DNA from: Amoebophrya sp. A120
Lineage: Eukaryota > Protista > Dinoflagellata
Assembly (NCBI GenBank): GCA_905178155.1
Contig: CAJINV010000004.1
Location: forward strand, 1-64,000
DNA length: 64,000 nucleotides
Direction of reading: 5' to 3'
Within the stretch, counting starts at the first letter, position 1, and every line of letters starts with the position of its first letter. Positions 1-64,000 of the stretch are shown piece after piece. The notes under the pieces were generated by a model. It was given only the letters and a program-made list of their open reading frames with translations. It did no database searches and was not told the DNA's origin. The translations under genes were made by a program, and so were the position numbers.

Positions 1-7
1 CGCGAAA

Positions 8-4583: not shown

Positions 4584-4740
4584 AGATGCTACGCGTTCGT
4601 AAATTGCACACAAAATGTAGAGCTCTCCCGCAAATACGCGATTATCATAGATGCTACGCGTTCGTAAATTGCACCCAAAAAATGTAGAGCCCCGCAGCAA
4701 AAGCGAATAAATAGATGCTACGCGATCGTAAATTGTAAAT
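4584..4740. repeat. Three ~64-bp-period direct repeats (AGATGCTACGCG(T/A)TCGTAAATTG)
   Basis: Copies start at 4584, 4649 and 4713, just downstream of the integrase ORF. Confidence 0.85.
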
Positions 4741-7098: not shown

Positions 7099-7110
7099 GC
7101 TACAAGTGCG

Positions 7111-9284: not shown

Positions 9285-12200
9285 ATGTCGGTAAAAATCG
9301 TTGACGTAGACAAGACCGCCTTGGCGCTCACGCCAGAGTAACCAACTGCAATATAAAAATATGTCTGGGTGGTCTGGAAGATTCTTGCCAGATTTGTGAT
9401 ATTTGTCTGGCATGACTCTGAACTCTGAAATGCATAGCCACGAAGGACAAGGAATCGTCTTGCCTGGTGTCATGCAAAAGCGTAGTCTGTCATGCAGAAT
9501 ACGCAACACATATTAGATAGAAGCCTCCTGAAAACTTGTCATGCTTCGGCACGTACTGCAGTGTGCCTACCACTCCCAGACTTGCATTCCAACCTTCCAG
9601 ACCCAGACATATTTGCAATGCATACAGAGGGACGCATTTTCTTCAACCAGTTCCGCCCGGGCGAAAAATTGAAATTTGTCTCCTTCATCGGCGTATCCTG
9701 TGCAAAAGCAACATCGCACCCGTAGTAAGTAATCGCAGTCATGCGTTGCAAATTTATTTCTGAAGTTAAATCCACACTACAAATACAAATTTCATTTCAC
9801 ATGCTGAGGAAATTTGTCATGCGATTTATGCTAGTGCGCTCCTGCTTTTGCATTTCATACGGCGCGGGTCGTGTGGGGAAGAGTTGGCTCGCGTCAAGAT
9901 TTGCGGAACATGTGTGGTAAGTTCGCATGTCAGGATGAAGAAATAAAGAGAGACGCTTCCCCATAAAATTCCTTGCATTTGTCCGTTTTTTGAAGGGTTG
10001 TAATCGTTTTATTTACCAACGACAAATATATGCTGACGCCTAGGTGGTTGCTTCGCTCGATTTTGTTTTTTTTAATATGTGAAAGTGGTTCGGATGCCAA
10101 AAATAAGCCGTTTGATTCTTTCTTAACCCATTGGATGTTGGAAAAAGCAACAGACACCGGGCAACGCTGCGGCAAGAACTCTCTTTGATTCAGTACTGTA
10201 TTTTTCGTACTTGATTTACTAGGTACGATACGGTCCTTTCGGATCGCGAATATGGACCTGTCAGGATTGAAATCGTCAAAGTTGAAATGATTTGTGATGC
10301 ATAAAACGGATACCCGTTTGACCTATAGTTTGTAGTCGGTGCATGACAAATTTTCCCGGTTCTGGAAGCGAGTCTGTCATGCGGCTTAGGGCAAAAGAGC
10401 TGCCTTCTGTCATGCTAGTCAGGAGTCCAACTTTTGACCCTTGCCAGGACTATGCTCTGCCTCCCGTGCGTCCTCTGCAATAGAGTCAGTTTTTGTATCG
10501 CATTTCATGCATGACAAATCATTTCAACTTTGACGATTTCGATCCTGACACTCCCATAGCGAAGAGCGACGAGATATTCCCGTGCCATGGACGGGCGACA
10601 TTTTTTTCACGCGTGGAGAAGGTTATCCCGTGCAAAAGTATCGTACTCGTACTAATTGCAGTTATGCATTACAAATCTTTTTCTCAAGGCCAATCCGCAT
10701 TACAAATTTAATTTGTAATGCTGAGATAATTTGTATTGCAATTTATACTAGTACGATACTTTTGCAGTTCATAAAGGTGAAGCAGTTACCAAAGGTATCT
10801 GGGCGTTCGCGCTGAGACCAAATGACCAGGTAAGTTAGTACAAAAAAATTGAAAATTACCGTGACAAAATAGAATAAGAGTCTTTCCCTCTGTTCTTGCG
10901 CAATTTCTATTCATCATCATCGCTTTCGACTAGGTTTTGGGCCAGGAAGAGGGTTCTTTTGCTCTATCTGAGTGTCTTGAAATCACAATAAAATCTGCAG
11001 GACCCAGATAACGCCACTGATCATGAGAACGGCGGCGCGGAAGATCCTGGCGGCGCGCCGCCGGGTGGCTCCAGTAGAACGACGGACAACGACGACGACC
11101 AAGAAAGCGCAGACAGCAGCGAGACTCGGGGCGCCTCCGCTACCATCGTTATTCTGGATTGCGAAGGATCTGATAACCTGCTGGATTCGCAGCAGGAAAA
11201 CACCATCGCGAAGCAGATCCAGGCCATCTCTTTTTTTCTGGCGGGCCGCGGTTCCGTCGTGTTCGTGGAGACAGACCGCCTGCGGACCCTATCAAGTGTA
11301 AAAATGTCTGGGTCTGGAAGAATCCGAACTTGTGATGCTGCATTTGGATTCCAAAAAAATCTGTATTGCATGAGTACCAAAGGGAATGCAATTTTTGCTA
11401 CGCTGAGAAGGCATTTGTCATGCGGAATAGGCAGCGCGAGGTCCTCAAAAAATCTGTAATGCTAGGGCGTGCATCGCAGACATCATGGCCCAGGCAAAAC
11501 ATGCGTGACAAGTCTCAGAATCTTCCAGACCCAGACACTTTTACGTTTGATAGACCCAGAGCATCGACGATATCCTACGAAAAAAGTGTTGCAGTTACAC
11601 ATTTGTGCCCAAGTCAGCAACACGAAAATTCTCTGCGTCAGGAAGAAAATTTGCAATGCAGAGATCAAAAGGGAAAACGCGGATGAAACAAGAAGGTTCC
11701 TATGCATATCCAGCATGACATACCTTGTCTGTCTTGCTCGGCCTGCAGCACAATGTGTTGTAACTGTAGCACTTTTTTCTTGGCATAGACGACCTGGCCC
11801 GCATATTGGATGTCAAGCTCGAGGATGAAGATCTGTGTATGCAGTAAAAGATTATAATAATCGCACTAGGTGGTAGTTGTGTGAGGAATCAATTGCATTT
11901 ACAACCTTTGAGATGGGGTTTGTCATGCATCGCTGCAAGTAGGTTTAGTGCGATATTAATTCTTTTGCATTGCATACTGTATAGCCTGCAGCAACTTTTC
12001 GTCGTGGTAAACAAGGAAACCCTCGTATCAAGACTAAAAACGTCCCCACTGCCCCCGAGTTGTCATGTAATATGGCGTCCTTGTTAGCATTATTTGTGTT
12101 TCTGATGCGCACCAGCCTCATGAAAAGTATTTTGTATAGTGTTTTGGAATTTGTGATCCTCGAATCAGCATAAAATGTTACCATATTTGTGATGCCGCTG

Positions 12201-15200
12201 CGCAGTTCGCCAAACAGGATTACACTACGGCCTAAAACTTGTCATGCGTATACAACCAAAGCTGGTTGCTTTGCCTACGCCGCTTTAAGTATTGCCATCT
12301 TGACTCTGGGGAGGTGAGTACGTTTTTACAAATGATACCCCGGCAGCTCCTTTGGCTTGGAGCAGCTGCTCGAGAAACAAAAGCGGTATCCTGTGGAAAG
12401 ACGTACAACCCGTCCTCTCCAAAGTTGTCTTTGTCATGCAAATCTGCATACTCTTACTCACCTGCAGTGTCTCTCATCCTCAGCAGGAGCTCCATGGGAG
12501 ACGCTTTATAAGCGAAGTTTTGGCTTTTCGTTTTTGTCTCGCTAGAATCAGGATGCCGCGGGTGCGGCAGCCAAAGCTATTTGTCTTTGTGTAGGAGCAA
12601 ACTTCCCTTCGGGATTTTGGTTTTCAACATATCGACTTTGGGACGTGATGGACGTTTTGGCACAGGATGAGCGGCCCTCTTGCCTGAAGATCGGCCAGGA
12701 GTTCGCAAAGGAGCGAAGAAATTTATGGGATTCTCAAACGTTACACTGGCTCTGTTTGCAGTGACATGGTTCTCCATTTGAAGATTGCATAGGCAAGTAG
12801 ACTAGCAAACCCAAATAAAGCGAAAGGGGTGACAAAGAAGCTTGGTCGTCGTGCCATAGTGATTGCGCGGGACAAGAAGTCATGTAATTGTAAGTACAGC
12901 GACCAATATAAAAACGCTTGCGAATGCCATATTTTTTTTTCCGGATTCCCACATTCTTCGCACGCACTAGCTCCACAAGCACCACTGCGGTACAGGATTG
13001 CGTCACCTACTCGGACCTTACCCTAGAGGACGCGCTAGACCAGCTTTTCTGCTGCATACAAAGGATATCCTCCGCAAAAGCATCGCACTAGTACTAGTAG
13101 GGGCAGATCGCATGACAAGTTTCATACGCACCATAAGTAGAAACAAATGGAATTTGTGATGCGGAGTTAAGTATCTAAAATTAGTGCGATACTTTTGCAC
13201 TTGATAAAGGAAAACGCCGGTGAGCAACCTCGGTGGTATAAACTCGATAAGAGGACCGTACAAATTTTATACCTTAGGTAACAAGCGCTACGATTATAAA
13301 AAGGAACACCTCCGCTGCTCCAGCTTCTACAAATGCCATACACTACGCGTGACATAACGCACGGAGATAATGATGCTCGTAAGAACTACAGGCAAGATCA
13401 AGATGAGCAAAAATATTTCATGAAGTGATACGAATTCGACGCGCACGACGAGTTTGTGAAGATTAACAACGAGCAGGCTCATATCTTAGAAAAAAAAGAA
13501 CTGCTGCATAAAGAAGAAATAGGTGACTTGGGGTGAAAATTCGAATTCCTTATGTGAAGAAAGTAAAAATCGCCGCGGAACACCAGGTCCCGAGTGCGCG
13601 CGAGCCGTCACCGGATATCTTATCCCACGAAAAATAAAAAAGTGTCACAGTTACACATTTGTAGTCAATTCAGCAACACAAATTTCTCTGCATGAGAGAG
13701 AAAGCTTGTAATGCAGAAATCCTACGGGAAAACACCTATGAAACGAGGCTCCTATGCATATCCGGCATGACAGAGCTTTTCCGTCTTGCTTGGCCTGCAT
13801 AGACTATGTGTGTAATTGTAGCACTTTTTTCTTGCGATATATCTGAACATGGACGCACTGGAGGACACGCTCCAGGAACTTCTGGACCTCGTATGATTTG
13901 CGAAAGTATATAAGCGTACTAGTAGAAATTGAAATCGCATGAAAAGTCCCCTCAGCATAAGAAAGGGAATTTGTAATGCGGATTTAGCATGAGAAGGAGA
14001 TTTGTAATGCATGACCGGTAGACGAGGTCCCAGACCGAAGTGGTAGGCGCTTAGGGTGAACTATGTATGTAGCGCTTAGGGCCCTTCCGTACGGCCAATT
14101 TGTATGTCCCGCAACGGGGTTCGCCTAAATCGGTCACTTGTATGCAAGGCGTTGGGTTACCCGGTCGGCAGAGCCGATCCACAACGAACGAACGAACGAT
14201 GACTGCGATTATGATTAAAACGAGTGCGACGATGCTTTTGCAGTCAATACCTCGAACTGGCCGACTACTCCCGGGATTTGCTTTATGGCGTTCTCAAACG
14301 TTACACTCTCAATCGTTACATGAATTTCAATTTGTCATGCAGGACCACTACCACGCTTCTCACAATCAAGCTTCTTCGCATGACAAGTTCTCGACAAGCT
14401 AAATAGCATTGATTACAATCCGTGCCAAATCTGTAATGCAAGACGCGCAAGGTCCCCCCTTTCACTTTTGCTGTTCTCGCATCACAAACTCATGCAACAG
14501 CTGCGAACGCTGTAACGTTTGAGAACGCCATATGCTTCCGATGCTTCTTCGAACAGACGACCAGGAGGACTACGTGGATCATTCGCGGGTATTAAAAACT
14601 AATTACATGCTTATGCTGAAGCATTCTTCACTGATGAAAGTAATTCGTCTACTTCCGCATACTAGTTATAAACATGGAACCAGATCAGCCAGCACTTTTT
14701 TTTTCCCAAACTAGCCGCGAGGTCTACCTCTTTTGGTAGAAGTGCAAACCAGAGCATCTTAAAAATTTGGTAGAACAGAAACAGCAAGAAACAGCAGAGC
14801 AAGAGCTTGTCTTGGTGGAAGTGCAAGAAAAAAAGTGGTTGGACCAGCAGCAAGAGTTTCACAGATGTACAACTAGAGCCGTGTGCTGTTGTTCTGCCGG
14901 TAGTCGTTGAAAACTCGATTACTTACTTATGAAATGTGGAAGTGCTTGATCTTTGCGACTCATCCCACTTCCAGGCCCCGGCTAGTAGCATCGCCTCTAC
15001 TGTTGCCGCTGAGTCAGCTTCTACCTCCTCTACTTCCGCGGGTGAAGCGAGCAAAGCGAAAGCGGCTAGCAGCGGAACCATCGATCCGGTAACGAAGTCA
15101 GACTGGACATGCAAAGTTGACTATCGCAAGAAAAAGTGTTACAGTTGCACATTGTGTTGCAGGCCAAGCAAGACAGACAAGCTCTGTCATGCCGGATATG

Positions 15201-18200
15201 CATGAAGCCTCCTTTCATAGGTATTTTCCCGTAGGATTTCTGCACTTCAAGTTTTCTCTCTCATGCAGAGAAATTTGTGTTGCTGAATTGACAACAAATG
15301 TGTAACTGTAACACTTTTTTCGTTCGATATTGACGAGGAGTTAAGCCTGTCCTTCGACGACCTCTGTCGGTCGTCCGTGGCGGAGCTGACCCAGATCCTG
15401 TTGGACGCGCTTCAGCGGCGGCCGCTCGACCTGCCACATGATATTCTTTGCAAAAGTAGAAAAATCGACGTATTAGTACGTCTACGTGGTATTATTAAAA
15501 ACTATTGCAATTGTACACATTTGCTGCTCAGCATGTAGAAGTTGACAAATGGAACAATATTTCATGCTGATTTAGCTTGGGAGAAAGATGATTTGTCTTG
15601 TATGACTGCGATTCGACGTACGAGCACGAGTGGAAGAATACCTTTTGCATCGAGGATAACTGACCCGGCCCAGCAAGTCGCGTACCTGCAAGCTCAGCAG
15701 CAGAAAGAGCAAACTATGAGGAAACAAGCGCGGGGAGGCGCCGGGGCGTCTTCAAGTAGTAGCACAACATCACTCGGGTCCTCGGATCTGCACAAGTTCG
15801 ACGCTTCCATGCAGGTCTGTGTGACCAAGTTCCAGCGCAAACCCTACGTGCGGTACGCCAACGTCCGGGCGCCCCAGATATGGAAGTGTCAGAATCGAAA
15901 TTGACAAAATCGATGCACAAAATCGATGCCAGTTAGACCTACAGTTTTTTGTGGGCGCATGACAAATTCTCCCCGTCCTGGAAGCGAATCTGCCATGCGG
16001 TTTAGGGCAAAAGAGCTGCCTTCTGTCATGCTAATCAGCAGCCCAACACCGAACCCGTGCCAGGACTACAATCCGCCTTCCTTGCATCCTCTGCACGAGA
16101 GTCGCTTTTTGCGTAGGATTTTATGCATTACAGATCATTTCGATTTTGTTGATTTCGATCCTGACACATCCATACCAGATTGTGGACAATTATTCGAAAA
16201 AGCTGGAAGCCGAGCTGATAGGACAGTGCACAAGAACTCGAACTCCCCCTGCTCCCCCGCATTTTCCATGCAAAATGCAGAGTGGTCCACATCGTGGCTC
16301 GTGCCTTTAGACACTTTGCGCGTGAGTGCCGAATGAACAGGACTGCGCTTTTCCATTTCAGGATTTGTCATGCAAACGCTACATTTGTGGCATTGCTTCT
16401 GTTGCTGCTCATGCTATACAAATGAGGAAGAGGGGGAGTTGTGCACCCTCATAACTGACCGCAATGGTCCTGAAGCAGCGGCACTTCGCGAAGCTCGTAC
16501 TCGTCACGAAAAGGATCCTCGAGTGTCTCGTCGAAATGTTCGTGTTGCAGCTCGAGGCCGACAGTCTGGAGAAGCTGATGGCAGGAGCACCAGGAGGGTC
16601 TACGTCATCTGCGGCTTCGTCCATAGGCGACGAGCAACATGCGGGTCGCGCTAGTACTGCCGCGTCTAACTCGGAGAAAAACGGCAAATCTACGACCAGC
16701 GGAACGTCCACCACGGCGACAGGAACGCTATGAGAGTGCACAAGAACTCTCATCCCTCCCCCTCATTTGTATATGCAAAATCCGAAATCCTATCGTTGTG
16801 TTGTAGCTGTAGCACGGTTTATCGCATGACAAATCTCGGAAGGAGCCCAAAGAACGCTACTACGTTAGGCACATCAACTTGTCTTGCACAGGCTCCATGT
16901 GTTGTTGTTGAGCTGGTGTCTTTATTGCTGTCCATGCGAAACAATTACCAATGAGGGGGAGGGGGACGAGTTGTGCACTCTCATAAACGCCCGAGCTGGA
17001 ACAAGAAGAAAAGGCCGACGTCGCCACGTCGGGCCCTGTTGCAGCAGCAGGAGATCCTGCTGCTCTATCCAGCACTTCTGCTGCATCTACCATAAACAGG
17101 ACCGCTGAAGTAGACACAACATCACCAGCACCAACCGCGGAATTATCGAGCACAGTCAATCACGACCCAGCACCATCATCAATACTGGGGGACAGCGAGC
17201 CTGTGTCTTCGGAGACCACGACCAGCCGAGCAAAAGAAGTAAACCGACTCTCTATCAAAAGGGAAAATCTCCCCTGCCCATACTGCAAAAGTGTATTTGT
17301 GGAAATTTGTGATGCCGATTTGTGGTCACAAATCGCGTCTGTCTTGCAAGAGGGCAACTCCGCAGGCCCCGCGGCATTGTGCAGGTAGTTTCTCATGCTG
17401 TTGGTCCTACAGCGCGGATGTTTTTCATGCTAAGCGCCTAGGCCGCAACCTCTCTACTCGCGCGTAGTATGTGTATGGGCCTTCAGTGCTTTCCAGCAAG
17501 ACAGCTCGGATTTGTGTACACAGATCCAGCATCAGCGATTTCGTTTTGATATGGGGAGGGGGGTTCTTTCGTTTTGATACTCTCATCGGCACAAACAGTG
17601 GCATCGGGCGGCGGCAGCAGCTCCGCCACCGCTAGCAGCACAGGCGGTGGTCGAAAACTGAAGTCTATCAAATGTAAAAATGTCTGGGTCTGGAAGAATG
17701 CAAGTTGTCATGCTCAATCTGAAGCATGCAAAAATCTGTGTTGCATGATTACCAAAAGTCGTCCAGTTTTGGCCAAGTCGGGGGGGAGTTTCTCATGCAG
17801 GATAGGCATGAGAGAGATCGCACAGAATCTGTCATGCTAGGTCCTGCATTCCAGGCTTCATGGGTCATGGAAAAGCTGCATGACAAATCGCGCATTCTTC
17901 CAGACCCAGACACTTTTCCATTTGATAAAGTCGATTACGGGGGAGTCGGTCAAAGTGCGAAGTCTGCTCTCGTATGATAGCCAGATTCTGGACAAGCTGC
18001 TACAGCAGTGGGAACAAAATCCAGTAGTGCTGCAGATTGAAAACGAGGCTTCCACTCTGGAGATACAACAACTAGCGACGACGTTATCTTCTTCCAGCAA
18101 CGTCAAGGCTGTAAACAGAATGAATACTGCAGCGCAAAACAAATACATAAACTCGACGTCTTATCCTGTGCAAATAAAGTATCGCACTCGTAGTAATTGC

Positions 18201-19910: not shown

Positions 19911-20429
19911 AAATCTCGAACAATTTGGTGAAGCCGCTCCACCCGAATAAAGACGTATGTGTTCGAAGTTCTTTCTGTCACCCAAGACGGACAGGCCACG
20001 AAAAAGAAAAACTCCGCCGAGATGAAGTAGATGCGCTGGGACGACGACGCGAAGCCGAAGTCGCTGCTCACTATCCGAAGATCCAGAGGGGAGGTTGCAG
20101 CATCCTTTATCGAGGCCGAAGACACAGTGACACGGAAAGTAAGAACGAAGGCGCTCGCTCGGGCTAGGGCAGCTTGGGACTTAAGTACAACAAAGATTGA
20201 AATTACAGCTACCTACGTAAAAACAAATAAAGAACGTTGCGAACAAGGCAAGCAAATTTTAATTTTCTTATACTTCAACTTCTTATTATTTCTCGAGACA
20301 GATCATGGAAACTACAAACTGCGACCCTACTCAACAATATTTTCAATAAGGGCACCAGCACAGTGATATGGCACGCGCGATGGTGATGTCACCGGCAGAT
20401 GAGCTTGAGCATAGAGACAAAGCATAGCA

Positions 20430-20658
20430 CGATTCGAAAACCGCTTCTTTCATAGAAAACTTTTTTGTAGGGCCAGCAAGAGGAGCCCAGTTTGTGCTCT
20501 GCGGAGAGGGCATTTCTCATGCGTAATAGGCATCAGTGAGCCCCCTAAATATCTGCAATGCTAGCTCATGCATTTGCATTACAGACATCATGGGTCATGC
20601 AAAAAGTGCATGACAAGCCTGGCAATCTTCCAGACCCAGACATATTTGCAGTTGATAT
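20430..20658. mobile_element. Family A remnant outside coding sequence (left TIR eroded)
   Basis: Right TIR CTTCCAGACCCAGACATATTTGCAGTTGATA is present; left boundary not found. Confidence 0.6.
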
Positions 20659-51956: not shown

Positions 51957-52827
51957 CGATGAAGATGAAGAAACCTGCTGATCATGAGCGTAGATTAGAT
52001 ATCACGTCTATATGTCGAGTGTTTTTTTCTGATGATAAACAAAGTCGCCTATATTACACAAAAAAACCGGTGGATCCTCAACATGGAATATGTTCTGCTC
52101 GTTCGCGAATTATGTGTTTCAAGTTCTTTCTTTCGCGAATGTGTTTCAAGTTCTTCCGTGGATAGATCTGTCTATAAATGTGTTTAAAAAAGTTCCGCAC
52201 CTCCTGCAGGGAATGGGAAGCTGCAAAGCTGGCTTCTTATAACTTGCTGCCGTCCACGCGGCCGCGGCCATTCATGCCTCCTTTTCTTGCCGGTATTAAT
52301 TCATCAGCATTTTAAGAATGAAGAGTTTTTAAGATTTTTGCGGCAGTAGAAGTGTACTCAGAATCATTTCAAATCATTTCAAACAGGAACCGCCTATTAT
52401 TTTCTGGTCCTCGTAGTGCTTGGCGAGAAAAAAAACTAGAACTCTATGAAGTTTTTTCGACACCGTGGCCGTCCTCGTGATTTCGCTGCAGCTCCAGCTC
52501 GTGTACCTGTCTACAAAAGTTGTTTTTTTGCAAGACAAAGAACTTTTTTTCCCACGGCCGTCGTGAGCATCTATTCGCTCTTCCTCTGCGTCACCGAGTT
52601 CGTTTCCGAGATACATTCTGGCGCGTTATGCATTGCATACATTCTGACCGCGTCTGGAAGTAGACCAAGAAAAGTGCAGATGTCTACTCGTCCTATCCAG
52701 CTCTTTGTGGACGATCTGCAATATTATTCTGTGTCGTGTCTGCAATGTAGGTACCGCATGGCATGATAAGTTTTGCTCGGGAGGTTAAGTACTTGTTCTC
52801 CTTCTTCATGCCTAACCTGCACGAGGA

Positions 52828-55800
52828 ATGATCGTGCCCTCTTTGATGGGACGAGAGAAGCACTGCGCCTCTGCTCTTGCTGACTATGCAAAAAATCACT
52901 TTTTTGTCATGTTGTACTGCAGAATCAGAATCACAACAAGTTTCCATCCTCCCACATCACTGCTCTACCGAGTTGTCATGTTTGCAATGCATGCGCGTCA
53001 CCGCAGCGCAAATCTTCGACGACGAACACAATTGGGAAGGTCTCAGGCATGTTCCGGGAACGTTCCGAAATGAGTCCCGGGGCAAGTTTCCGAGCAATGA
53101 GCCTCCGGGGGAGGTAGGTTGGTCCGGAACAAGGCCCGGGGCAGGCTCCTGCGCAGGCGTCCCGCGAGCAAGGTGCTCCTCGGGGGATATTTGCGGAAAT
53201 AGCTAGCCCCGCCGAGGGGGCCACGAGGGTGGTCCGGGCCCTGTCTTTGTCGGCGAGAGTGCTTCGCATCGTCGAACCGAAGTGCCGACCTTCGGCACCG
53301 CCAGCCGCCGACGTGCTCTTTGATGGGAGCGTCGCTGTGGTTTGATCCGGTTCGGGGGCCTCGCAACCCTAAAACGGCCAGAGGGCCACCCCGGGGGTTT
53401 TTGGGTTTCTGAAGGAGGGCAGGCTGCGAGGTGTCACGGCATCGGAGGTCGTCTGGGTGTTGGCTCGGCGCAGCCTGCCAGGCCTGCCCCCCTCTCGGCG
53501 CCCGGCGTGGATGGGCCGGCCCCCGTCGTCGGGCGGGCCCGCCGAGGATTATCTTGTTGTCATCGCGCGCGCCCCCGAAACGCTTTGTTTTATCGCATTC
53601 CAGCAAACGAAGCCGCATGCCATCGTGTAACGCGCGTTACACGATGGCGCTCTCCCTTCATCCTGTCTCCTGCTGCGCTGGTGTGGCATGCTCCCGGCCG
53701 TAGACGCGCTGTCTCGCCACAGGGCGACACTCGCTCTCGCGCCCCCCCTCCGGTGCAACACCTCAAAGAAAGGCCTCCCTTCTTGTCGTGCCCACAGCCG
53801 CGAGCACGGACGGGGGCTCGGCTGTGGGGGAAGTATGCTGCATCGTGCTCATCTTCGGTTGATGTGCAAGCGTGTTGCCGTAGCGTTTGGCCGTCGTTTA
53901 GGTGGTTCATCTTGGTGGGCTGCTGTCTCGCACCAACGTGCAGCCGGCATCCACTTGAGCAGTATAGACCGGCGGAAGGTTGGGCCCTCGTTGCCTGGAA
54001 CCCCGGTGCCCTCTTGTATTGCCCCAACCGGAAACCGGCCCGACAAGTTCTGCGCAAGTTCTGGGCAAGTTCGGCACCCCATACATCTAGACCCATGCTT
54101 TCGGAGTAACACATCACTGTTCTACTGATGCATGTTTGCAATGCATGCGCGTCACCGCAGCGCAAATCTTCGACGACGAACACAATTGGGAAGAACCAGC
54201 ACCCACCGTCCAGAAAGCAGCACGACAGGGAGGCAAGAAATTATGGTCAGAGCAGCGCAGGAGATCATGCACCTCCAGCAGCCGAATCTGAAGGAACAAC
54301 GCTGTCAGGAAGATCCTCCTCCTCGGCCTCAAAAACTACAGGGGCGCTACAAGACCGGGACAAATCAAATTCAGACTCCCCACGAAGAAGTAGAAATGCT
54401 GACTCGGCTTCCGCCACAGCACACGTTGTATCTCCGACCGAACATCAAGATCAAGAAGCGGAAGATGCGACGCGGGTGCAGCTTGAAACTCAAGAACAAG
54501 AGCGCGATGTTGATCAAGCGTATCCTGCTGATGTGCAAAAGTTGTATCGTTCATCTTTACTCGGTCTGTCCACTGCGATCTTGCATAACGCACGTGAATT
54601 TGATTTTACCTCAAACCGCACGAGGAAGTTCATTTGGCCTTTACAGAAATAAAACTGTCGTGGCTGATACTAGTCCCAGTAGTCGTGCTTCACATAATTA
54701 CCCATATTTTTCGTTGTTTTGGTTTTCGTTTTCCTTTTGCAATGCATAAAGCGACGTCTTCATCTTCTGTACCAATTGGAGTTGAATCTGCTCCAAGTAT
54801 CTCAGCAGCAGCAAGCGGTGCGACGCGGTTGCAGGCGGACCGCAAGAAGGACGTCCAGAGACGAGGAACATCAAGATCACACCCTGCTAGTACTTCTTCA
54901 TCAACATCGAGGGCCGCCAATCAACGGCAGGAGCCACCGCGTAGAAAGCCGCGCGAAGTTGTATTGAAGAACGCCGATCCTCCTGATGGCAGTGGCACCA
55001 CCAGGACCTCCAGGAGAATTAGAAACGACGGCCGTCATCAACAGCAGAATCAGCATGAACAAGATGCTCCTGCTCCCGCACGAGGACCTCCACCGCCACC
55101 AGACAACATTGTCCATCTCACAGAAGGACGAGAACAGAAGAAAGAACCTCCAGTCGACACCGTCGACGTCTTATCAAATGCAAAAATGTCTGGGTCTGGA
55201 AACTTGTGATGCTGCGTGGCGTAATATCATGAGGGGATCACAAGTGCTGGCTCAGCATGACAAGTTTCTGAGCTTCTAGGTGTTGCCTATTCTGCGTGAC
55301 AAACTGCGCTTCTGCATGACAGAAAAGTGGCGCGCTTGGGTAACGTGCATGACAGATTTGGGAGTCATGCCAGACAAGCATGACAAACATGCACTCTTCC
55401 AGACCCAGACATTTTTACATTTGATACGTCTTTTCCGATGGTGAAGAAATGGTTCTCACGACAGGAGACAACGCGGAGCTCCTTGCCCAAGCTGGAGATC
55501 ATGCGCTCTCGTCAAGCGGAGGTCCTCCCGCAGGTAGTGGCGCGACGGCGCGTCTGCAAGAGGATATTAGAAATATTGACAGGCCGAGCAGGACGGGTGG
55601 CGGAACAGGAAAAATAAATGCACTTCCCACCCGAAAGCATGGCTACCAGGAGCAACATGGTAGTACTTCGGGTGGGAACAAAAGAACGAAACAGTCAACA
55701 TCTCCTGGGTGGTCGTCCCCAGAGGCAGAAGAAGATGTTGTACCAAAAAGACACTATCTGAGTCCACCTCGAGAGGATCATGTTGACAGTGATGCCGCGG

Positions 55801-58800
55801 GGAGGGCCTCTCCGGATGAAAAACATCAACAACGAGGAGCAAACGAGGAAATTATGGACGACCCCTTGTCATCTTCTTTCGTCGAACTGCAGAAACAAAG
55901 GACGGCTGGTTATCAAACGGAGCTCCAAAAAGCACAAGCCCGCGAAGCAGCCTGGCAGGCGCAACTCGCTGCTGCTCACGGCATGACTACCTGTAAGCAT
56001 TTCACGTGTTACGGCACGGGCCAGCCGCAGCATACAACAACCGCGATAAAGTCCCGCTTTTACTCCAGCGTTGTGGCCTCCGGCACGCCCGCACAGGCGG
56101 GGTCCGCAGCGCAGCAGGTGCTGAAACCGGCCGCCAGCTATTTACAGTAAATTTCCTGTACACGACGTACAAATGCGGTCTCTGCATGGCAAATCTAGGC
56201 TTCGATCCTAGTTTAGCATGACAAGTTTCACAGTCCAAATCGGGGAAATTTGTGATGCATCTTGTACATGTACGGGAAATTTGTATTGCATACCAGCCGG
56301 GAGCAATACGCCTGGCGGTTGGACACGGAGGACGAATGCAACGGCAGCGAGACCTATGACCCTGCACAACTCCCCCTCCCCCTCATTTGTCATGCAAAAT
56401 GCCCGTATTTACTCTTTGCCTCTTGGCACTGTTTGCAGGACAAGTTTTGGTAGCCCAAATAGCACGACTATAATCCAGCGCAAATTTCCGATGCAAAACC
56501 AGCATTCTTGCTGATGCTTGTATTGCCGGTCAACATGCTATACAAATGAGGGGGAGGGGGAGTTGTGCGCTGTTATAAGTCCGGACAGTACTTCAAAAAA
56601 ATCGGGTGCCAGGACGTGTGTTGCAACATGGTCTACTGCATTGCGGACGACGAATGGAAGGTGTGGCCGTTTCAGAAATTTCCAAACCTCCGCACCGCCC
56701 AGGCCGCAGTGGTGCAGGAAAAGGGTAAGGCCACGTATTTCCAATCCCCCAATGCGCTGAAGCACCACGTCGTGCGGGCGCCCAATTGCGTTGGCCCCGC
56801 GGACCACGTGGGCCGGAAGGTGTACGCGCGGGTCTCCGAGTGCCACCGGTACGTGGGCTTCTTTCACCGCGACTACCGGCACAAAAAGAAGCCCGAAGCG
56901 CGGACCTACCGCTTCTTTCCCTACCTGGCGCACCTGAAGCAGTCCACGCCAGTGGTCTGGAATGCGATTGACCCCGCGAATCTGGTGGCGGGGACCGCGG
57001 AGCAGGGCTCCTTCTTCCGGCTGGTCACTTCGGAGACCGAAGACGGTCCGGCCATCGTGCAGTGGGCGAGCGAGCACCAGGAGCAGCTGCTGGCCGCGCA
57101 GCGGTACATGGAGGGCCAGATGAAAAAAGCCGCGGACGTCGGTAGCAATATTACGTACACCAAGCAAGACACGTCGATGGAAAGCCTGATCCGCGCCCGG
57201 AAGCCTTTCTTCCAGGCGCGCGAGTACCTGCAGGTCCCGGTGGGCGGGAACCCCTTTGTGCCCATCGGCTACTGCTGTCAACACGTGGTATCAGCCTGGA
57301 CAAGTCCCCGTCCCCGTCTTCCCTCCTCTTCTTGACGACATAAACGCCAGGAGCCGCGGAGGTGCTGGCAGTATTAATATTTGGGGCTCGCGCCGCCGTG
57401 TTGGCACAACGGCGCGGGGATCTGCGCATAACAATAGAAAAGCAGTACTGCTACTGCAGCAACTAGAAACAGTTCGAAGAGGCTTGGCCGAAGAGCTGGA
57501 GCGTGCTTTCTTTGGGGCTGACTGTTCCCGGAAGGGCAGCCGACGCACTAACGCCGCGCGATGATGGCAAACAGCTTGATGGCAACAAAGTACAAAAACA
57601 AAAAGGAAGAGCACGCGTAGCCAGGAACATAAAATGAATAAGAAAAGGCGGCCAGCAGAGCGACCGGCCCACCAACTGCAGCCCAACGCCTAGCGCGCCA
57701 GATCCGTCCGGCCTCTGTAGTGCCAAAAGCCGGGTCAGGTAGAGGTCGATAAGGGCACGCGCTTCCGCTTGGTGCGCCTCACCGTAGTTGTGCCGTCTGC
57801 CTTCTAGGAAATGGAAAGCAGACCCGCGCCGGGCGGCCTCCCCTCCTTCTACTTCAGCTACCCAGCAAGCGCAGGCAGCTAGGGCGAGAACGCCAGCGAG
57901 CCTTTGCGGCCCGCAAGTGCGTTTTTGTTTTTAGGTGCGGCTCCTGGCCGTCGCGTTGGTACTCGTCGTAGCAGGTGGCCGCCCGGCGTGGAAAGAAAAC
58001 GCTACAACCTGCCGAAGGCACCTGCGCCGCTGCACGGACGTAACCTCTGCGGCGGCTCACATCTGTTGCCTTCGCATCAGCCTGCCGCTGTGCGCCGAAA
58101 GTTTCTCTTGCGTATGGTCTTGGGCTTGTTGTGTGCATGCTTTTCCATCCGGGCTGCCCTTCGGCGAGGCTACTTGGCCCGATACCCTGTAGCAAGCAGC
58201 AGGACCACGCAGCTGCTGGCGGTTGCCTCCCAACAAATCTAAGTAAGAGGCACGCCTGCCAGTGCTGTTTATGTTTTTGAGTTTTACTCTCGGCACCGGC
58301 GGCCACGCCTCACAGCATGGAGGCAACAGCCATGCGGCTGGTTGTTTCTGATGAATTAGCCCCAGCCCCACCGCGTTTGGTTCGTTGCTTCTGTGCTCCC
58401 GGTGTTGGGCTTCCTAGGCAAGCACCAGGGGCAACAGGAACAGACCGGCCGGGTAGCTGCAGCTGATTAGTGTGAGAAACGATAAAAAAGCCTTTTGGCT
58501 GTCGAGCTGTAGGTGCTCGCTATAGGCGGAAGCTGTAGAGCTTAGGCTCTAGAACATCACCAAACAGCTGTAGAGATTCAGCTCTAGCGATTGAGCTCTA
58601 CAGGTTTTTGAGCTCTAGAGGCGTTCGCCCTAATCGTTATCAATCTTTTTTCGCAGGAGCGTGGTGATTCACCAAGGAAAATTAGGAAAAAAAAGGACAT
58701 CTCTAGAGATTTGATCCTTCTTGGCCCAGGTTTGAGCCTAGTCTGCACCACAGTAGCATGCAGATTTCAGAAATAAAGCAAGTAGCCTTCTTTGAGCCTT

Positions 58801-61800
58801 GTTCGGTTCCAGGTTTGGCTCTAGTTGCTGCAAGTACTATAGTTCTCTTGGCTACTTCTAAATTGTTTATAAGGAGGAGGTGCATCATGAAGTGTTGCTG
58901 TTTTTATTCAATACTGCTTTCTGGGTACTACTACTAGCAGCTTTCGCAGTTATCTGTTTCTGCATGACAGTGACACTGACAGCCACAACTGGTACTGGTA
59001 CTGGAGTTCTTGCTGTTTTGCATGAGAAATGAGAACATCAACATGATGGAAGTAGTAGATTTCTGCAGGCTGATACGTGGCGCAGTGGATGTACGATTGG
59101 AACTTCAAGTTTCACGACCCCGCGGCCAGACAGCACGAGCAGCATCCGGTGCAGTATGGCGTTCTCGAGCGTTACATTCTCAACTGTTACATGAATCAGT
59201 CATGCAAAAGTGCCTTCATCCGGCAGATGATCGAGCGGCTTCGCATGACAAATTTCGGAAGGGCCAAACAGTACCTAAATTTGCGCCAAACTTGTAATGC
59301 AAGAGGCGCAATCTTCCTCCTGTCACTTTTGCCAGTCTTGCATTGCAAATTCATGTAACACCAGTTGAGAATGAATGTAACGCTTGAGCACTCCATATGC
59401 AGAGCTGCGTGGTGTTCTCGGAAGCCATGGACCGCGGCGGAAAGGACCGCGTCAAGCGCCGGGGCCCCGACCCCCATGACGACTGGGAAAAGCGGGTGGG
59501 GAGCATCGACGACCCGCCCAACATGGTACCGCCGATCTACACGACCGCAGAGCCCTTACCGCCGATGCCGACCACGGCCCATCCGACCACCCGGGAGCCG
59601 CCAGCCACAACGTCAACGAAATTCCCCCCGCCAACAACGGGGGCCCCGCCCGGCCCAATAACACCGCCCGGCCCCGGTACATCAACAACCACGATCGTGG
59701 TACCGCCCGAGCCCTTACCTCCAGGGTAAGGCCTTCTCAAGCGTTACATTCTCTTCAACTGTTACATCAGCTTGCAATGCAAGCATAGCAATAAAACTGA
59801 AAGGAGGAGGATTGATGCGCCTTTTGCATATACAAATTCCGCCCAGATTTAGGTGCTGTCTAGCCCTTCGCAGATTTGTCATGCGAAGCAGCTTGACCAT
59901 CTGGCGGCTCAAGGTGTTTTTGCATGACAAACCATGTAGCAGTTTGTTGAGGATGTAACGTTTGAGAACCCCATACCCGGCCACCGGTTCCGACCACTCC
60001 CACCCCCACGACCACCTCTCCCGGCACCGACCTCACGCCCGACGCGATTCACATCCTTGCCAGCAGCGAAGATAAGTTGGAAGGTCCGGATGCGGATGTC
60101 GTGGTCAAAGACGACCTGCCCGACGTGGATGAGGCGGCCACGGAGCACGAGTGGTTGTTTCGGACCTTCGAGGAGAAGTGTCCCTGGCTGCAGATCGATC
60201 TCGGGCAGACCCGGCGCGTCCAGAGTGTGCGGCTGCTGGTCTCCTCGAGCCGGGCCCACATGCGGCGGCTTTTTTTCGTGACGACGGTGGCCTCCAGCGA
60301 GCCGTATGGGGCGGCGAACACCCCCGAGATGACCTCAAACGCGGACGACGAACTCCGGGGCACGCGGACGTGGGACACCACGGATTTGCTGGATTTCGGG
60401 GTGCAGGTGCTGGTCACCAAGAACAGCAGGCACCACCACGCGCGGTGCGACGCGACCGGCGGCATATGAACTGCAAAAGTATCGTACTAGTATAAATCGC
60501 ATGACAAATTTCCCCAGCATGAGTGATAAAATTTGTAATGCGGATTTAACTTGACAAAGAAATTTGTAATGCGTGACTGCCATTACCACGAGTACGATAC
60601 TTTTGCACTGGATACGGCAGCCCCCAACCCAACTCCGGCGGGCGGCCGTGCGTGTTCCCGGGCCAGACCTGCCCCCCGGTGCGGCCCGGCGAGGTGTGCG
60701 AGACGGTCCTGTTCGCCGACCAGTGGGACAAAGATGCGAACAAGAGGCTGATCTTTCGCCCCGGACAGGAGATCCCGACGACGTTTTGGATTGACTGCAA
60801 AAACACGGTCCCCGGGCGGTACGTCGTCGTGCAGCTCCCGGGCGTGCGCAGCGTGGCGTCCGAAACGCGGCGGGTGCTGTTCCTGGCGCGCGTTCGGATT
60901 TTCGGCCGGCACCTGGAGGACGGGGAGTATTGAGAGGAAAAATCCCCCCTCCCCATATTGAAAAGGTTATGTCTCCGTCGAAAATTTGTGTTGCTAGTTT
61001 GAGGCCACGAATCACATTTTTCTTGCAAGACGACGACAAGGGCGGAAGCTTCCGTCCCATTATGATAAAGCGACTTGTCATGCTGTTGGGCTTAAACAAG
61101 GTCAGCCGTTGCCGTTTGCAATGCTCAACAACTAGACCCATACGCCCCTACCTAGCCTGGGGATCTGGCCGCAGTTGTGCCTTCCTGCAATACAAAGCTG
61201 ATTTGTCAGCGTCAGAATGATATGGGGAGGGGGGATAATTTTTCCTTTCGATAGGGAGGACGCGGACTTCACGTCGATGACCACGACCCAGTTGGAAATG
61301 TCACCGGATGGCTCCGTGCGGAACGGCGAGCAAAACTTTTTGAAGGACGGGCGGCCGCTGGACACGCTGTTCCGCACGGACTACCTGCAGTGCCCCACAC
61401 TGACGTTTCAGTTCGCGCAGGAAGTGCAGGTGAGCAGCGTGTATCTCTCCGCCGAGAAGGACCATGCGCACCTCCGGAACCTGTTTCTCCCGAACCCGCA
61501 GCGGGGTTTTCTGGATGCCAACGGGAACGTATCAAAGTGCACAACTCCCCCTCGTCCCCCTCATTTGTCATGCAAAATGCCTAATTTACGCCTTGGCTCT
61601 TGGCAATGATGTTTGCATGGCAAGTTCTAGCGCCCCAAATAGCACTACAATCCTGCCCAAATTTGTCATGCAAAACCGGCAAAAATCTTGCTGACGCTTG
61701 TATTGCTGTTCATGCAATACAAATGAGGGGGCGGCGGGGGAGTTGTGCACTTTCCTAGAACGAGGCTGCGGAAATCAAGGACCGGTTGCTGGAGCAGTGG

Positions 61801-64000
61801 GCGCACGCTCCCTACGGGGCGCAAGTGAGCCCGGAGAAAAGGCTATCCTGAGTAAAAACGTACCCACACCAGAGTTGTAATGCAGATTTGCAAAGACAGG
61901 AAGACTTGTAATGCGCATCCCCATGAGAGCCATTTCCAATCGTGTTTTGGAATTTGTGATGCTGTGAACAGGATGAGCAGACGAATCTGTGACGCGGCTG
62001 CACTTGCTAACCTGCACTACACTGCAGAGTGCAACCTGTCATGCGTGACTCACAAAACTCGTAGCTTTGTGTTGCAAAATCCCCAGCCTGGCTCTGGTGT
62101 GGGTACGTTTTTACTCAGGATAAAGGCTGGGCGTTGCCGGCAACGCGAACCAGGACCGCGGCGTCCGCGTGTTGGTGTCCCGCGAGGCGCCCACTCCGGC
62201 TAGCACCTGCAAGCAGGACGACCCCGACCTGGACAGCGGCACCGTTGAGGTGTGCGAAAACCTCAGGTACGGCCTCCAGGGAGAGGGCCCCTACCGATTT
62301 GCGAAACTAGCCGAGGTGCCGGTCGCGCAGACCTTGCCGCCGGGGTTTGCCGACGGGGGCGCGGCGGGCGCGGTAGATACCACCGGGCACTACCAAAAGT
62401 ACGAGGTGGTGGGAACCGGGTGGTGCAGCTGCGGAGGCGACCCGTGCGAGGATACCTATGAAACGAGTGCACTACGACTCCCGCTCCCCCTCAATTGTAT
62501 GCCACAAACAGCAACACAAGCGTCGGCACGAGTTCCGGTTTTGCGCGACAAGTTCACCCACATTTGTAGTTTTGTTTTTTATTGAGCTGCCGGAACTTGC
62601 CCTGCAATTGCAAAAAGTGTCAAGGAAGAGGCAAGCGTCAAGTCGGAGGTCGAGTTGTGCACTCTTATAATGCCCCGGCGTCCCCGACAAACGGCGACTA
62701 CATCGCGGGCAACGCGGATCGCGCGCAAGACTACTGCCAAAGATTCTGCGACGAGGACCGGGGATGTCAGGCCTACATGCAACAGCGTGACATGCAACAG
62801 CGTGACATGCTTCCAGGAAACTGCCGCTTGTTCGGGTACGAGGACTACGAGGTAGACGGCGTCTATCCAGGAAAAAGCACCCATCCCCATCCAATTTGTC
62901 ACGCAAAACATGCATAAGGTCGACTGTTTGTCATGCAAAAAATGGATGGGGATCATGGGTGTTTTTCCCTGGATAGCGTCGTCAGCATCATCACGCGGGG
63001 AGGCCTTGGCTACGGGGTCGGAAAAATTCCTGCCGGGTGGCGGTCCGGGGTCCCGTGCATGAAAAAGACGGGACACGCAGCGACCTCGGGGAAGCCGATC
63101 TACACAAATCAGGGCGACGCCTGGTGCAAGTGCAACTTGAAAAACCACAACCTGAACAAGAACGGGGCCGCAGGAGGCGTCCGCGTCAGTGCGACAAACC
63201 TCCCCTGCCCGGTACAAGGGTCCGAGGAGCAGTATGCATTGCAAATATAGTATCGCTCTCGTATAAATGCGAGTGCAGCTGCATCATGAGCATTACAGAT
63301 CTGCTCTCTTACCTATACCTGTGAATCTACATGACAACTTCCATCTTTCTTAAAGGAAAGATTTGTCATGCAATTCATTCCACTGCGATATCATATATTT
63401 GCAATTCATAAGCAAGACGGGAAATTGATTTTCTCCAGCTATGACAAAGGTCCCGACTGGTGCAAGACCCTGTGTGACAAGGACAAGGACTGTCGTGCCT
63501 ACCAGCAGTCTATGGTGAACGCCGAAACGGCCGCTAACTGCAGGCTCTTCAACGCAGACGATGTCGATGGCGGCATCAACGCTGCCGACGATCTATCAAA
63601 TGTAAAAATGTCTGGGTCTGGAAGATTCTGACACTTGTCATGCACCTTCTGCATGAGCCGTGATGTCTGTGATGCATGCCCTAGCATCACAGATTTTTTG
63701 AGAGCTTCTTGATGCCTATTCCGCATGACAAATGCCCTTTCCGCGTAGCAAAAATTGCATTCTCTTTGGTACTCATGCAATACAGATTTGTTTGGAATCC
63801 AAATGCAGCATCACAAATTGCATTCTTCCAGACCCAGACATTTTTACATTTGATACGATCCGGAGTTGTACAACGATCTGAGCGAGGTGCAGAAGATATC
63901 GAAGGGAAAAATCCCCCCTCCCCATATCAAAACGAAATTTCTGATGCTGGATCTGTGTGCACAAATCAGCTTTGTATTGCAGGAGGGCACTGCGGCCAGA
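52828..64000 (+). CDS. Large Cys-rich adhesin-like protein: Pro/Thr linker, F5/8-type (discoidin/galactose-binding-like) and PAN/apple-like modules; runs off the window; start uncertain
   Basis: In-frame joins checked at 54521, 55172, 56139, 56355, 57289 and 59155. Motifs: PWLQIDLGQTRRVQSVRL, GRYVVVQL, CQRFCDEDRGCQAY..CRL, CKTLCDKDKDCRAY..CRL. Confidence 0.65.
53040..54109. mobile_element. ~1.07-kb GC-rich insertion flanked by an ~85-bp duplication
   Basis: 52953-53039 matches 54110-54193; the last 63 bp are exact. Confidence 0.75.
54521..54748. mobile_element. Introner family C, degenerate
   Basis: DR AAGCG; frame restored. Confidence 0.75.
55172..55426. mobile_element. Introner family A
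   Basis: DR CGTCT. Confidence 0.92.
56139..56292. mobile_element. Introner family J (TIR TA..AAATTTCCYGTACA)
   Basis: DR CCAGC; frame restored. Confidence 0.82.
56355..56577. mobile_element. Introner family G
   Basis: DR AGACC/AGTCC. Confidence 0.85.
57289..59075. mobile_element. Large (1787 bp) TA..TA non-canonical intron, type K
   Basis: TIR TATCAGCCTG..CAGGCTGATA, DR CGTGG; removal gives in-frame YCCQHV-AQWMYDW. Confidence 0.8.
59155..59397. mobile_element. Introner family F
   Basis: DR TGCAG. Confidence 0.9.
59727..59975. mobile_element. Introner family F (reverse orientation)
   Basis: TIRs clear; DR degenerate (CAGGG/CCCGG). Confidence 0.78.
60465..60614. mobile_element. Introner family C
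   Basis: DR CGGCA. Confidence 0.9.
60928..61253. mobile_element. Introner family H
   Basis: DR GGGAG. Confidence 0.9.
61530..61757. mobile_element. Introner family G
   Basis: DR GAACG. Confidence 0.9.
61844..62122. mobile_element. Introner family E (reverse of 39460)
   Basis: DR AAGGC. Confidence 0.92.
62457..62669. mobile_element. Introner family G, degenerate
   Basis: DR ATACC/ATGCC. Confidence 0.75.
62864..62975. mobile_element. Introner family I
   Basis: DR GCGTC. Confidence 0.9.
63233..63410. mobile_element. Introner family C
   Basis: DR AGCAG/AGCAA. Confidence 0.78.
63594..63855. mobile_element. Introner family A (reverse of 11290)
   Basis: DR CGATC. Confidence 0.92.
63897..64000. 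mobile_element. Introner family H, truncated by the window end
   Basis: Left TIR TATCGAAGGGAAAAATCCCCCCTCCCCATAT. Confidence 0.8.

What the first reader, a model, noticed from the sequence alone, without database searches (positions are those of the whole stretch)
9339..63855. A shared internal motif TTGT(C/A/G)ATGC / GCAT(G/T/C)ACAA is repeated inside otherwise unrelated introner families
Seen: families A-J have different TIRs and bodies, yet typical copies carry several instances of this 9-mer in both orientations (e.g. 9536, 9825, 10282, 11383, 12239, 14332, 21175, 31266, 56217, 61075, 62895). By eye it is rare in exons and in 1-9 kb. Inference: it is a binding site for one trans-acting protein (transposase or excision/splicing factor), or a pairing module that folds the RNA into a long hairpin. 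That would be a common cis code across families.
Basis: partly seen in the sequence, partly recalled or inferred. Interest (0 to 1): 0.8.

Follow-up and report, generated by a model that had tools for sequence, protein, structure and literature searches.

The report
Helix-phased box shared across introner families
Eleven families of small transposons that act as introns, in what is likely the marine parasite Amoebophrya, carry the same 9-base DNA box, spaced from their ends and from each other mostly in whole turns of the double helix, which likely marks where a still unidentified protein grips them when they jump rather than when they are spliced out of the RNA.

Summary
The motif is real: 127 exact copies, 124 inside repeats (about 8/kb versus 0.06/kb outside). 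The hosts match the published Amoebophrya A120-type introners: TAT...ATA ends, 5-bp duplication, removed from RNA-type contigs. Among 458 elements (window plus 519 kb of other loci) every one with a recognisable duplication has a strong site. Sites lie about 32, 41 or 53 nt from the end, recur 31-33 nt apart in 10 of 11 families, and shift half a turn when flipped. They are conserved threefold over spacers, most on propagated lineages. Four of 17 spliced elements have no strong site, and family E boxes cannot pair with each other, so a splicing or hairpin code is unlikely. The families are not wholly unrelated: shared tips, some shared spacers. Best reading: subterminal transposase-binding sites, as in Hermes (0.5), or a host DNA-bending factor (0.22). 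No transposase was found. The introners are known; I found the box in no paper, but this scan noted the box and its spacing before, on other pieces of this genome. Added here: the transposition-versus-splicing tests and the partial kinship.

The parts
9339..9624 (.). Family A element, TSD CAGAG; exact box at 9536
   Evidence: absent from RNA-type contigs (piece boundaries)
9694..9859 (.). Family B element, TSD CGGCG; box at 9814
   Evidence: absent from RNA-type contigs
10251..10558 (.). Family C element; boxes F10292 (41 nt from the left end), R10341, R10509 (41 nt from the right end)
10624..10773 (.). Family B element; boxes R10666, R10697 (31 apart), F10713 (16 further)
11290..11552 (.). 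Family A element, TSD GACCC; boxes F11330, F11415
   Evidence: skipped in X4-X6
11571..11787 (.). Family D element, TSD GACGA; no exact box, 2 strong profile sites
   Evidence: skipped; X1 reads through
11838..11976 (.). Old B-like element; one box F11920
12026..12337 (.). Family E element; all sites in one direction (exact F12187, F12239)
12387..12669 (.). Old E-like element, TSD AGCGG; one box at 12431
12724..12931 (.). Old F-like element with no detectable box, still removed from RNA
13066..13206 (.). B-like element; boxes R13110, F13154
13235..13585 (+). Canonical GT-AG intron, no box (control; fixes the gene on +)
13621..13839 (.). Family D element, TSD TATCT, opposite in orientation to 15122-15329; box 13706
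13892..14249 (.). B element with an internal insertion, TSD CCTCG; boxes 13971, 14002 (31 apart)
14284..14532 (.). Family F element; boxes F14332, R14378, R14479
15122..15329 (.). Family D element; no exact box, 2 strong profile sites
15442..15659 (.). Old element, no strong box, removed from RNA
15879..16174 (.). Family C element; box R15957
16218..16453 (.). Family G element; box F16365
16729..16985 (.). Family G element; box R16824
17253..17579 (.). Family H element; box F17307 (54 nt from the end)
17666..17927 (.). Family A element, TSD AAGTC; boxes F17705, R17878
18162..18315 (.). Family B element; R18239-F18255-F18273 (16/18 module)
18445..18766 (.). Old A-like element, no strong box, removed from RNA
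18919..19096 (.). Old B element, no exact box, one strong profile site, removed from RNA
19338..19635 (.). Old element, no strong box, removed from RNA
19738..19888 (.). Family B element; R19780, R19812, F19828, F19846
20456..20657 (.). Right part of an A element; box R20608
21126..21636 (.). A element with an internal insertion, TSD GCGGG; box F21173
21678..23552 (.). Cluster: B 21678-21827, H 21881-22201, B 22244-22392, B 22413-22590, H 22655-22975, E 23011-23346, B about 23395-23552; boxes 21712, 21746, 21777, 22021, 22286, 22317, 22351, 22830, 23091, 23113, 23307, 23439, 23476, 23492, 23510
24284..26600 (.). Cluster: D 24284-24485, A 24547-24807, A 24849-25105, I 25157-25264, A 25333-25610, I 25895-26002, H 26244-26600; I pairs 25193/25225 and 25924/25956 are 32 apart
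27622..28914 (.). Cluster: B 27622-27795, A 27983-28244, F 28389-28627 (F28431, R28477, F28526, R28574), D 28706-28914
31231..31876 (.). G 31231-31463 (F31266, R31324, F31375) and C 31547-31876 (F31591, R31643)
33132..35689 (.). Cluster: D 33132-33330, E 33414-33700 (F33445, F33531, F33614), old A about 34006-34326, A 34617-34879, E about 35110-35380, A 35427-35689
39460..40082 (.). E 39460-39738 (R39620, R39668, R39699) and A 39823-40082
41627..42145 (.). Element 41627-41780 (R41675, F41697, F41729) and C 41838-42145 (R41982, R42014, F42047, R42096)
55172..56577 (.). A 55172-55426 (F55204, R55255, R55378) and G 56355-56577; further boxes at 56216 and 56250
59155..63855 (.). Cluster: F 59155-59397, F about 59727-59975, B 60465-60614, H 60928-61253, G about 61530-61757, E 61844-62122 (F61875, F61906, F61954), I 62864-62975, element 63233-63410, A 63594-63855

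Best explanation
The box TTGT(C/A/G)ATGC sits several times inside nearly every copy of these TAT...ATA, 5-bp-duplication introners, at helically phased positions, and is likely the subterminal binding site of a DNA-binding domain shared by the transposase or transposases that move them. Shown: each end has three tiers, a common tip (TAT, seven loose bases, an A-run), a family-specific core at about 15-30 nt (often a 6-bp doublet), and the common box starting about 32, 41 or 53 nt in and usually repeated 31-33 nt further. Inferred: several copies of the protein would bind the boxes on one face of double-stranded DNA and hold or bend the 110-330-bp element so that the two tips meet for cut-and-paste; copies that lose boxes would stop multiplying but are still removed from RNA, a step likely guided by the paired terminal repeats. 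The protein was not identified.
For: All but 4 of 458 TAT...ATA candidates have a strong profile site (background 0.35/kb); the 4 without are singletons that also lack the 5-bp duplication. Inward sites within 75 nt of an end cluster at 31-33, 39-43, 51-54 and 61-64, with near-empty gaps between. Direct pairs at 31-33 in 10 of 11 families; weight 14.0 against a best null 3-base window of 7.9 in 2000 randomisations. After merging equal gaps across families into 21 classes, a 10.5-bp period with a half-turn shift for flipped sites gives R 0.53, orientation-blind only 0.22; with the shift left free p 0.002 (periods 10-11) or 0.015 (any period 6-20). Divergence within 21 subfamilies: box 5.6%, spacer 16.9%, TIR 11-30 about 5.6%. 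On trees of 15 subfamilies the box/spacer rate ratio is 0.24 on internal and 0.45 on terminal branches, lower inside in 13 of 15. Precedent: Hermes BED domains bind short subterminal repeats in both orientations whose exact phasing matters (PMC10368747, passages); Lemi1 proteins bind subterminal repeats of the Emigrant MITE (PMC1636448, abstract).
Against: No autonomous element or transposase in the window or loci: 9 long TSD-flanked candidates and 34 of the ORFs scanned with Pfam gave none (only 34 ORFs were scanned, against 241 of 200 aa or more). Farhat et al. report no transposase in A120. Family-specific TIR cores are as conserved as the box, which suggests several transposases, not one. 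Some gaps are off phase: direct 18, 39 and 48-49, divergent 33-34; in B the end-proximal sites point outward. Terminal branches still show constraint (0.45), and the TSD-age test of neutral decay was inconclusive. Sites were defined on the consensus, which favours low internal change. The half-turn shift was chosen.
Confidence: 0.5

Rival explanations
1. The box is bound by a host DNA-bending or chromatin protein that every family has to recruit to transpose (a role like IHF/HU or HMGB, recalled), while each family's own transposase reads its TIR core.
For: Same phasing and lineage-level constraint as the best reading. It explains one box across families whose cores differ. The box resembles the Sox-Oct composite element with its HMG half-site (recalled; the strings occur in Sox2 papers, search listing only).
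Against: No excess of the box outside elements: 3 in 47,955 nt of the window, near the Markov expectation, and 32 of the 62 outside hits have a second site within 250 nt, as undetected old elements would. The partial kinship of the families makes a conserved transposase domain sufficient. No candidate host protein was sought, as no genome is held.
Confidence: 0.22
2. The box is an RNA-level signal: a splicing or excision-factor site, or a pairing module that builds the long hairpin.
For: 129 of 298 site-by-strand cases pair with another site at probability above 0.5 in folds of 28 consensuses; the two same-direction I sites pair at about 0.6. The elements are removed without GT-AG. Terminal-branch constraint is not zero. 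Contigs show presence, not efficiency, of splicing.
Against: Of 17 RNA-skipped TIR elements, 7 have no exact box, 4 no strong profile site and 1 none at all. In both E consensuses no site pairs with another above 0.41 (24 cases), likewise A subfamily 6, while the TIR arms pair at 0.8-1.0 in all 28. Same-subfamily neighbours are in the same orientation 54 times and opposite 49 times; D copies of opposite orientation lie within one spliced contig. A 10.5-bp orientation-aware period is a property of double-stranded DNA.
Confidence: 0.1
3. All families descend from one ancestor and the box and its spacing are inherited leftovers without present function.
For: Shared tips and 5-bp TSD; 7 of 144 inter-family consensus pairs align at z above 4 with boxes and TIRs masked (D-L 6.4, E-L 5.2, E-G 4.8 and 4.6, D-H 4.3, H-C 4.1, G-K 4.1); 6-bp doublet in 6 of 14 TIR cores against 1.5% by chance.
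Against: The box is three times more conserved than the spacers next to it, while its free fifth base varies like spacer (18%). Spacers have mostly diverged beyond alignment while boxes persist, and offset changes come in steps of about one turn (A 32 vs 39-41, H 43 vs 54). Common ancestry is likely true but does not explain the constraint.
Confidence: 0.08
4. The box is kept for another DNA-level benefit to the element, such as escaping silencing or placing chromatin proteins, rather than for building the transposition complex.
For: It would also give phasing and lineage-level constraint; dinoflagellate chromatin is unusual (PMC11453091, passages).
Against: Positions are fixed relative to the cleavage ends, which points to the end-joining geometry. 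Not tested otherwise.
Confidence: 0.1

Closest known systems
Introner elements of Amoebophrya sp. A120 (Farhat et al. 2021, PMC7789003, passages and supplement search; Gozashti et al. 2025, PMC12130899, passages and supplement rows)
   Same: IR starting TAT, seven loose bases, an A-run; 3-5-nt direct repeats; non-GT-AG removal; many families; about 240 nt
   Different: The passages and supplement text I saw describe only the ends; no internal shared box, phasing or level-of-selection test. Figures were not visible.
Hermes (hAT) subterminal repeats bound by BED domains (PMC10368747, passages)
   Same: Short repeats inside the TIR in both orientations, asymmetric between the ends, position relative to the tip matters
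   Different: Hermes STR is 4 bp, TSD 8 bp, one transposon; here a 9-bp box, 5-bp TSD, shared by 11 families with different TIR cores, with a regular 10.5-bp register; binding not shown
Emigrant MITE and Lemi1 (PMC1636448, abstract)
   Same: A MITE with subterminal repeated motifs that a related transposase binds cooperatively
   Different: pogo-like, one family, not an intron; there subterminal motifs are argued to restrict cross-mobilisation, here they are common to divergent families
A120 family 38, labelled 'Ginger; 5-bp TSD, TA/TA Termini' in Gozashti et al. supplement file 8
   Same: 5-bp TSD and TA ends, TIR introner in the same organism
   Different: About 810 bp with integrase-like homology; the paper's text says it lacks Ginger termini and TSDs; I could not see its sequence, so whether it carries the box is untested

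Membership tests
Amoebophrya A120-type introner elements | Inverted repeats starting TAT + 7 nt + A-run | tested here: met
   Family-weighted logo: A at positions 12-15 in 0.68-0.88; TAT itself was the search seed; C, F, G, K have shorter A-runs
Amoebophrya A120-type introner elements | Short direct repeats at the borders | tested here: met
   356 of 458 have an exact 5-bp duplication; 3 longer, 11 shorter, 88 no exact repeat
Amoebophrya A120-type introner elements | Removed from RNA without GT-AG | tested here: met
   Joints in X4-X6 (RNA by guess of the tool); skip = element + 5 in 11 of 13, off by 1 in 2 with uncertain ends; X1 reads through 11524-13665; joined exons are stop-free on + in two runs and across three joints of a third
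Amoebophrya A120-type introner elements | Repeated, in many families | tested here: met
   16 multi-copy clusters and 24 singletons among 458
hAT superfamily (Hermes type) | 8-bp TSD | tested here: not met
   5 bp. A 5-bp hAT5 subgroup is recalled from memory; searches gave no usable paper
hAT superfamily (Hermes type) | Subterminal repeats in both orientations | tested here: met
hAT superfamily (Hermes type) | Cognate BED/DDE transposase | tested here: inconclusive
   None in 583 kb, 34 ORFs scanned; no genome held
Ginger / integrase-type DNA transposons | TGT termini (recalled) | tested here: not met
   Ends are TAT
Ginger / integrase-type DNA transposons | Integrase-like transposase between these ends | tested here: inconclusive
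   An Integrase_H2C2 ORF lies at window 2-4180 but in a region with no exact box; no link shown
MITE with transposase-bound subterminal repeats | Short, non-coding, TIR + TSD, multi-copy | tested here: met
MITE with transposase-bound subterminal repeats | Repeats bound by the transposase | not testable with these tools
   needs binding assays
Cis splicing signal | Fixed strand in the transcript | tested here: not met
   22 forward and 13 reverse exact sites in 9,101-20,500; orientation 54 same, 49 opposite
Cis splicing signal | Present in every removed intron | tested here: not met
   4 of 17 removed elements lack a strong site; efficiency not measurable from contigs

The most novel reading that the evidence does not exclude
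Tens of thousands of introners in this genome run on a two-key system: a family-specific TIR core plus one universal, helically phased box read by a single protein, possibly a host DNA-bending factor or a domesticated transposase, that folds any short DNA carrying the code into a transposition-ready loop. That would explain how so many families spread where no transposase was reported, and one pull-down with a 9-bp oligo would find the machine.
Probability: 0.2. Interest if true: 0.8.

Novelty: new variant of a known kind. Interest (0 to 1): 0.52.

Why it matters
How the Amoebophrya introners move is an open question: Farhat et al. found no transposase in A120 and most families are classed 'unknown' in Gozashti et al. 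A box common to the families, with fixed geometry and constraint on multiplying lineages, ties them into one radiation and gives a bait for pull-downs, a signature for finding the autonomous partner, and a marker that separates mobile from dead copies. It also separates two jobs: internal boxes for mobility, paired ends for removal from RNA.

Tried and rejected
No whole genome is held and the loci are not searchable as genomes, so no genome-wide transposase hunt. Long TSD-flanked candidates: L048 is a host gene with several elements between chance-matching duplications, L067 an A element with an insertion; the other 7 were not read in detail. Pfam on 34 ORFs: no transposase. Raw RNA runs X9 and X10 laid only 32 and 10 reads, mostly on repeats: uninformative. 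Viral contigs: the paired-box pattern gave 3 stretches (2 the same sequence, 1 a short tandem duplication) and the A-family TIR none; treated as chance. TSD decay as an age clock: box +0.012 (-0.001 to 0.026), spacer -0.003 (-0.027 to 0.017), inconclusive. A 16-bp lattice fitted the family-weighted data but failed on the merged gaps (R 0.25). TA-type (Tc1/mariner) duplication rejected: the duplication is 5 bp outside TAT and has no base preference. Masked-alignment test has low power: two A subfamilies score z 0.2 against each other, so B, F and I having no partner at z 3 or more does not show independence. Arm covariation: 41 same-variant copies against 21 expected at TIR 11-30, not corrected for kinship, left open. 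Literature: searches and the supplement search found no description of the box; Roy et al. 2023 was not seen, figures are not held, and in PMC12130899 files 13-14 were not searched, 41 of 58 A120 rows of file 8 were seen, and the box strings were not searched in its supplements.

Full report
Observation. The 9-mer TTGT[ACG]ATGC occurs 70 times forward and 57 times reversed in the window, never in 1-9 kb or 43-55 kb, against 2-10 expected from Markov models of order 1-4. 124 of 127 fall in repeats found by self-BLAST and inverted-repeat scans. There the box runs at about 8/kb in elements and 0.15/kb outside.

What the hosts are. Of 591 TAT...ATA candidates, 458 non-overlapping ones were kept; 356 have an exact 5-bp flanking duplication without base preference. 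They fall into 16 multi-copy clusters; 365 copies form 28 subfamilies in 11 families, 93 were left out of the consensus work. Contigs of runs X4-X6 (RNA by the tool's guess, one sample) skip the elements plus five bases; run X1 reads straight through 11524-13665. The joined exons are open on +, and one skipped stretch is a GT-AG intron on +. This matches the published A120 introners of Amoebophrya: IR beginning TAT, seven loose bases, an A-run, short direct repeats, non-canonical removal (PMC7789003, passages). The organism is inferred from this match.

The box belongs to the class. 421 of 458 elements have an exact copy (44 of 50 in the window) and 454 a strong profile site; the four without are singletons that also lack the duplication. 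The wider profile is roughly A(T/C)(T/C)TGTNATGC, with T2, T7, G8, C9 least variable and the fifth base free.

Geometry. Inward-pointing sites near the ends cluster at 31-33, 39-43, 51-54 and 61-64 nt. Ten of 11 families have a same-direction pair 31-33 apart (F does not); convergent pairs cluster at 16 and 45-50; B, D and L share a 16/18 module. With each family weighted once, direct and convergent distances are periodic at 10.25-10.5 (R 0.52 and 0.70, 0 of 2000 randomisations), the convergent ones half a turn out. Because families may share history I merged equal gaps across families into 21 classes: each class type alone is then marginal (p about 0.04, 0.04, 0.2), but pooled with a half-turn shift R is 0.53 against 0.22 orientation-blind, and p is 0.002 with the shift free, 0.015 allowing any period from 6 to 20. 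Exceptions are real: direct 18, 39 and 48-49, divergent 33-34, outward-facing first sites in B. An orientation-aware 10.5-bp register is what a protein bound to one face of double-stranded DNA would impose (inference).

Are the families unrelated? Not fully. They share tip and duplication; 6 of 14 representative TIR cores hold a perfect 5-mer repeat at lag 6 (chance 1.5%); with boxes and TIRs masked, 7 of 144 inter-family pairs still align at z above 4, linking D-L-E-G-K and D-H-C, while B, F and I have no partner at z 3 (150 shuffles a pair, low power). A mosaic radiation from common stock is the likely history. The TIR cores at 15-30 differ between families yet are conserved within them.

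Level of selection. In 21 subfamilies the box diverges 5.6%, spacers 16.9%, the free base 18.4%; shared variants are 3.5% against 13.5%, singletons 2.1% against 3.4%. On trees of the 15 largest subfamilies the box/spacer ratio is 0.24 on internal and 0.45 on terminal branches, lower inside in 13 of 15; the TIR core behaves the same way. That is the pattern expected if mutants fail to multiply. Terminal branches include unsampled transposition, so weak selection after insertion is not excluded, and the TSD-age test was inconclusive. In the six most decayed spliced copies, box positions mismatch the nearest consensus at 81 of 234, spacers 204 of 500, TIR 11-20 at 23 of 113 (my sums; poor alignments).

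Splicing and pairing. Of 17 removed TIR elements, 7 lack an exact box, 4 a strong site, and 12724-12931 any site (three of the 17 are read from piece boundaries, not listed joints). Folding 28 consensuses on both strands, 129 of 298 sites pair with another site, but none of 24 in family E, while TIR arms pair at 0.8-1.0 throughout; in family I two same-direction sites do pair partly. Orientation within loci is random, 54 against 49. The box can lengthen a hairpin in some families but is not needed for one.

Mechanism. Most likely the box is a subterminal binding site used in transposition (0.72 for the two DNA-level readings together): read by a domain common to the transposases of this radiation (0.5) or by a host bending factor (0.22). 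Shown: distribution, phasing, constraint, dispensability for removal as far as contigs tell. Inferred: binding, bending, the link to cut-and-paste. No transposase was found in 583 kb.

Comparison. It works like the subterminal repeats of Hermes, whose phasing relative to the TIR matters (PMC10368747, passages), and of Emigrant (PMC1636448, abstract). It is not filed as hAT: the TSD is 5, not 8 bp, and no transposase is in hand. Gozashti et al. class most of the A120 rows I saw as TIR DNA of unknown superfamily and note '5-bp TSD, TA/TA Termini' for family 38 (PMC12130899, passages and 41 of 58 supplement rows). Two reviews mention only the ends (PMC11282704 and PMC11453091, passages). Searches found no description of the box; Roy et al. 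2023, figures and two supplement files were not seen and could hold one.

Earlier scan notes. My phasing lead and its first test preceded the look-ups. Notes e1-10626161, e1-10628542 and e1-10628275 report the same box, the first also the 32/42/53 spacing, on other pieces of this genome; they are repeats, not independent support.

Verdict. Real, strong and apparently unpublished internal code in a known class of elements; a new variant of a known design. Interest 0.52.

Noticed in passing
window 11833-19888, 12 RNA joints: All 12 joints are compatible with one cut geometry: the intron starts 1-2 nt upstream of the first T of the TIR and ends 3-4 nt past the last A, splitting the 5-bp duplication 2+3 or 1+4.
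   Followed up: partly
window 11561-11787: The D element does not fit that geometry: the RNA contigs read one base differently next to the duplication, as if cut 6 or more nt upstream and inside the right TIR; a strain difference is equally possible.
   Followed up: partly
TIR positions 15-31 of families A, B, D, G, I, L: The family-specific core is often a 6-bp tandem doublet of different letters in each family (6 of 14 left arms perfect, chance 1.5%), like a two-finger specificity site.
   Followed up: partly
window 2-8500: Box-free multi-ORF region; the 1393-aa ORF at 2-4180 has an Integrase_H2C2 domain (E 7e-9), likely a retroelement; tandem repeat at 4584-4735.
   Followed up: partly
window 34570-34972 and 35380-35782: 403-bp segmental duplication, 98.8% identical, carrying an A element with its duplication: two copies from one insertion.
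   Followed up: no
L067 476-2934: A-family element interrupted in its TIR core by about 2.2 kb with a 415-aa ORF on the minus strand and no Pfam hit; fits earlier notes of retroelements that target introners.
   Followed up: partly
window 21126-21636 and 13892-14249: An A and a B element enlarged by unrelated internal insertions, duplications intact.
   Followed up: no
window 48534-48605, 49572-49643, 50842-50918, 51891-51961: Four copies of a 70-bp repeat, 91-97% alike, in the box-free region; further two-copy repeats at 45942/46567 and 52953/54110.
   Followed up: no
box with flanks: With its flanking A's the box resembles the animal Sox-Oct composite element (recalled; strings occur in Sox2 papers, listing only). 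Probably coincidence, but it suggests an HMG-type bending protein as a candidate.
   Followed up: no
families E and G/F consensuses: Upstream of a homologous spacer the box points one way in E and the other way in G and F at nearly the same distance (48-49 nt): a site flipped in place, and the main exception to the phase rule.
   Followed up: partly
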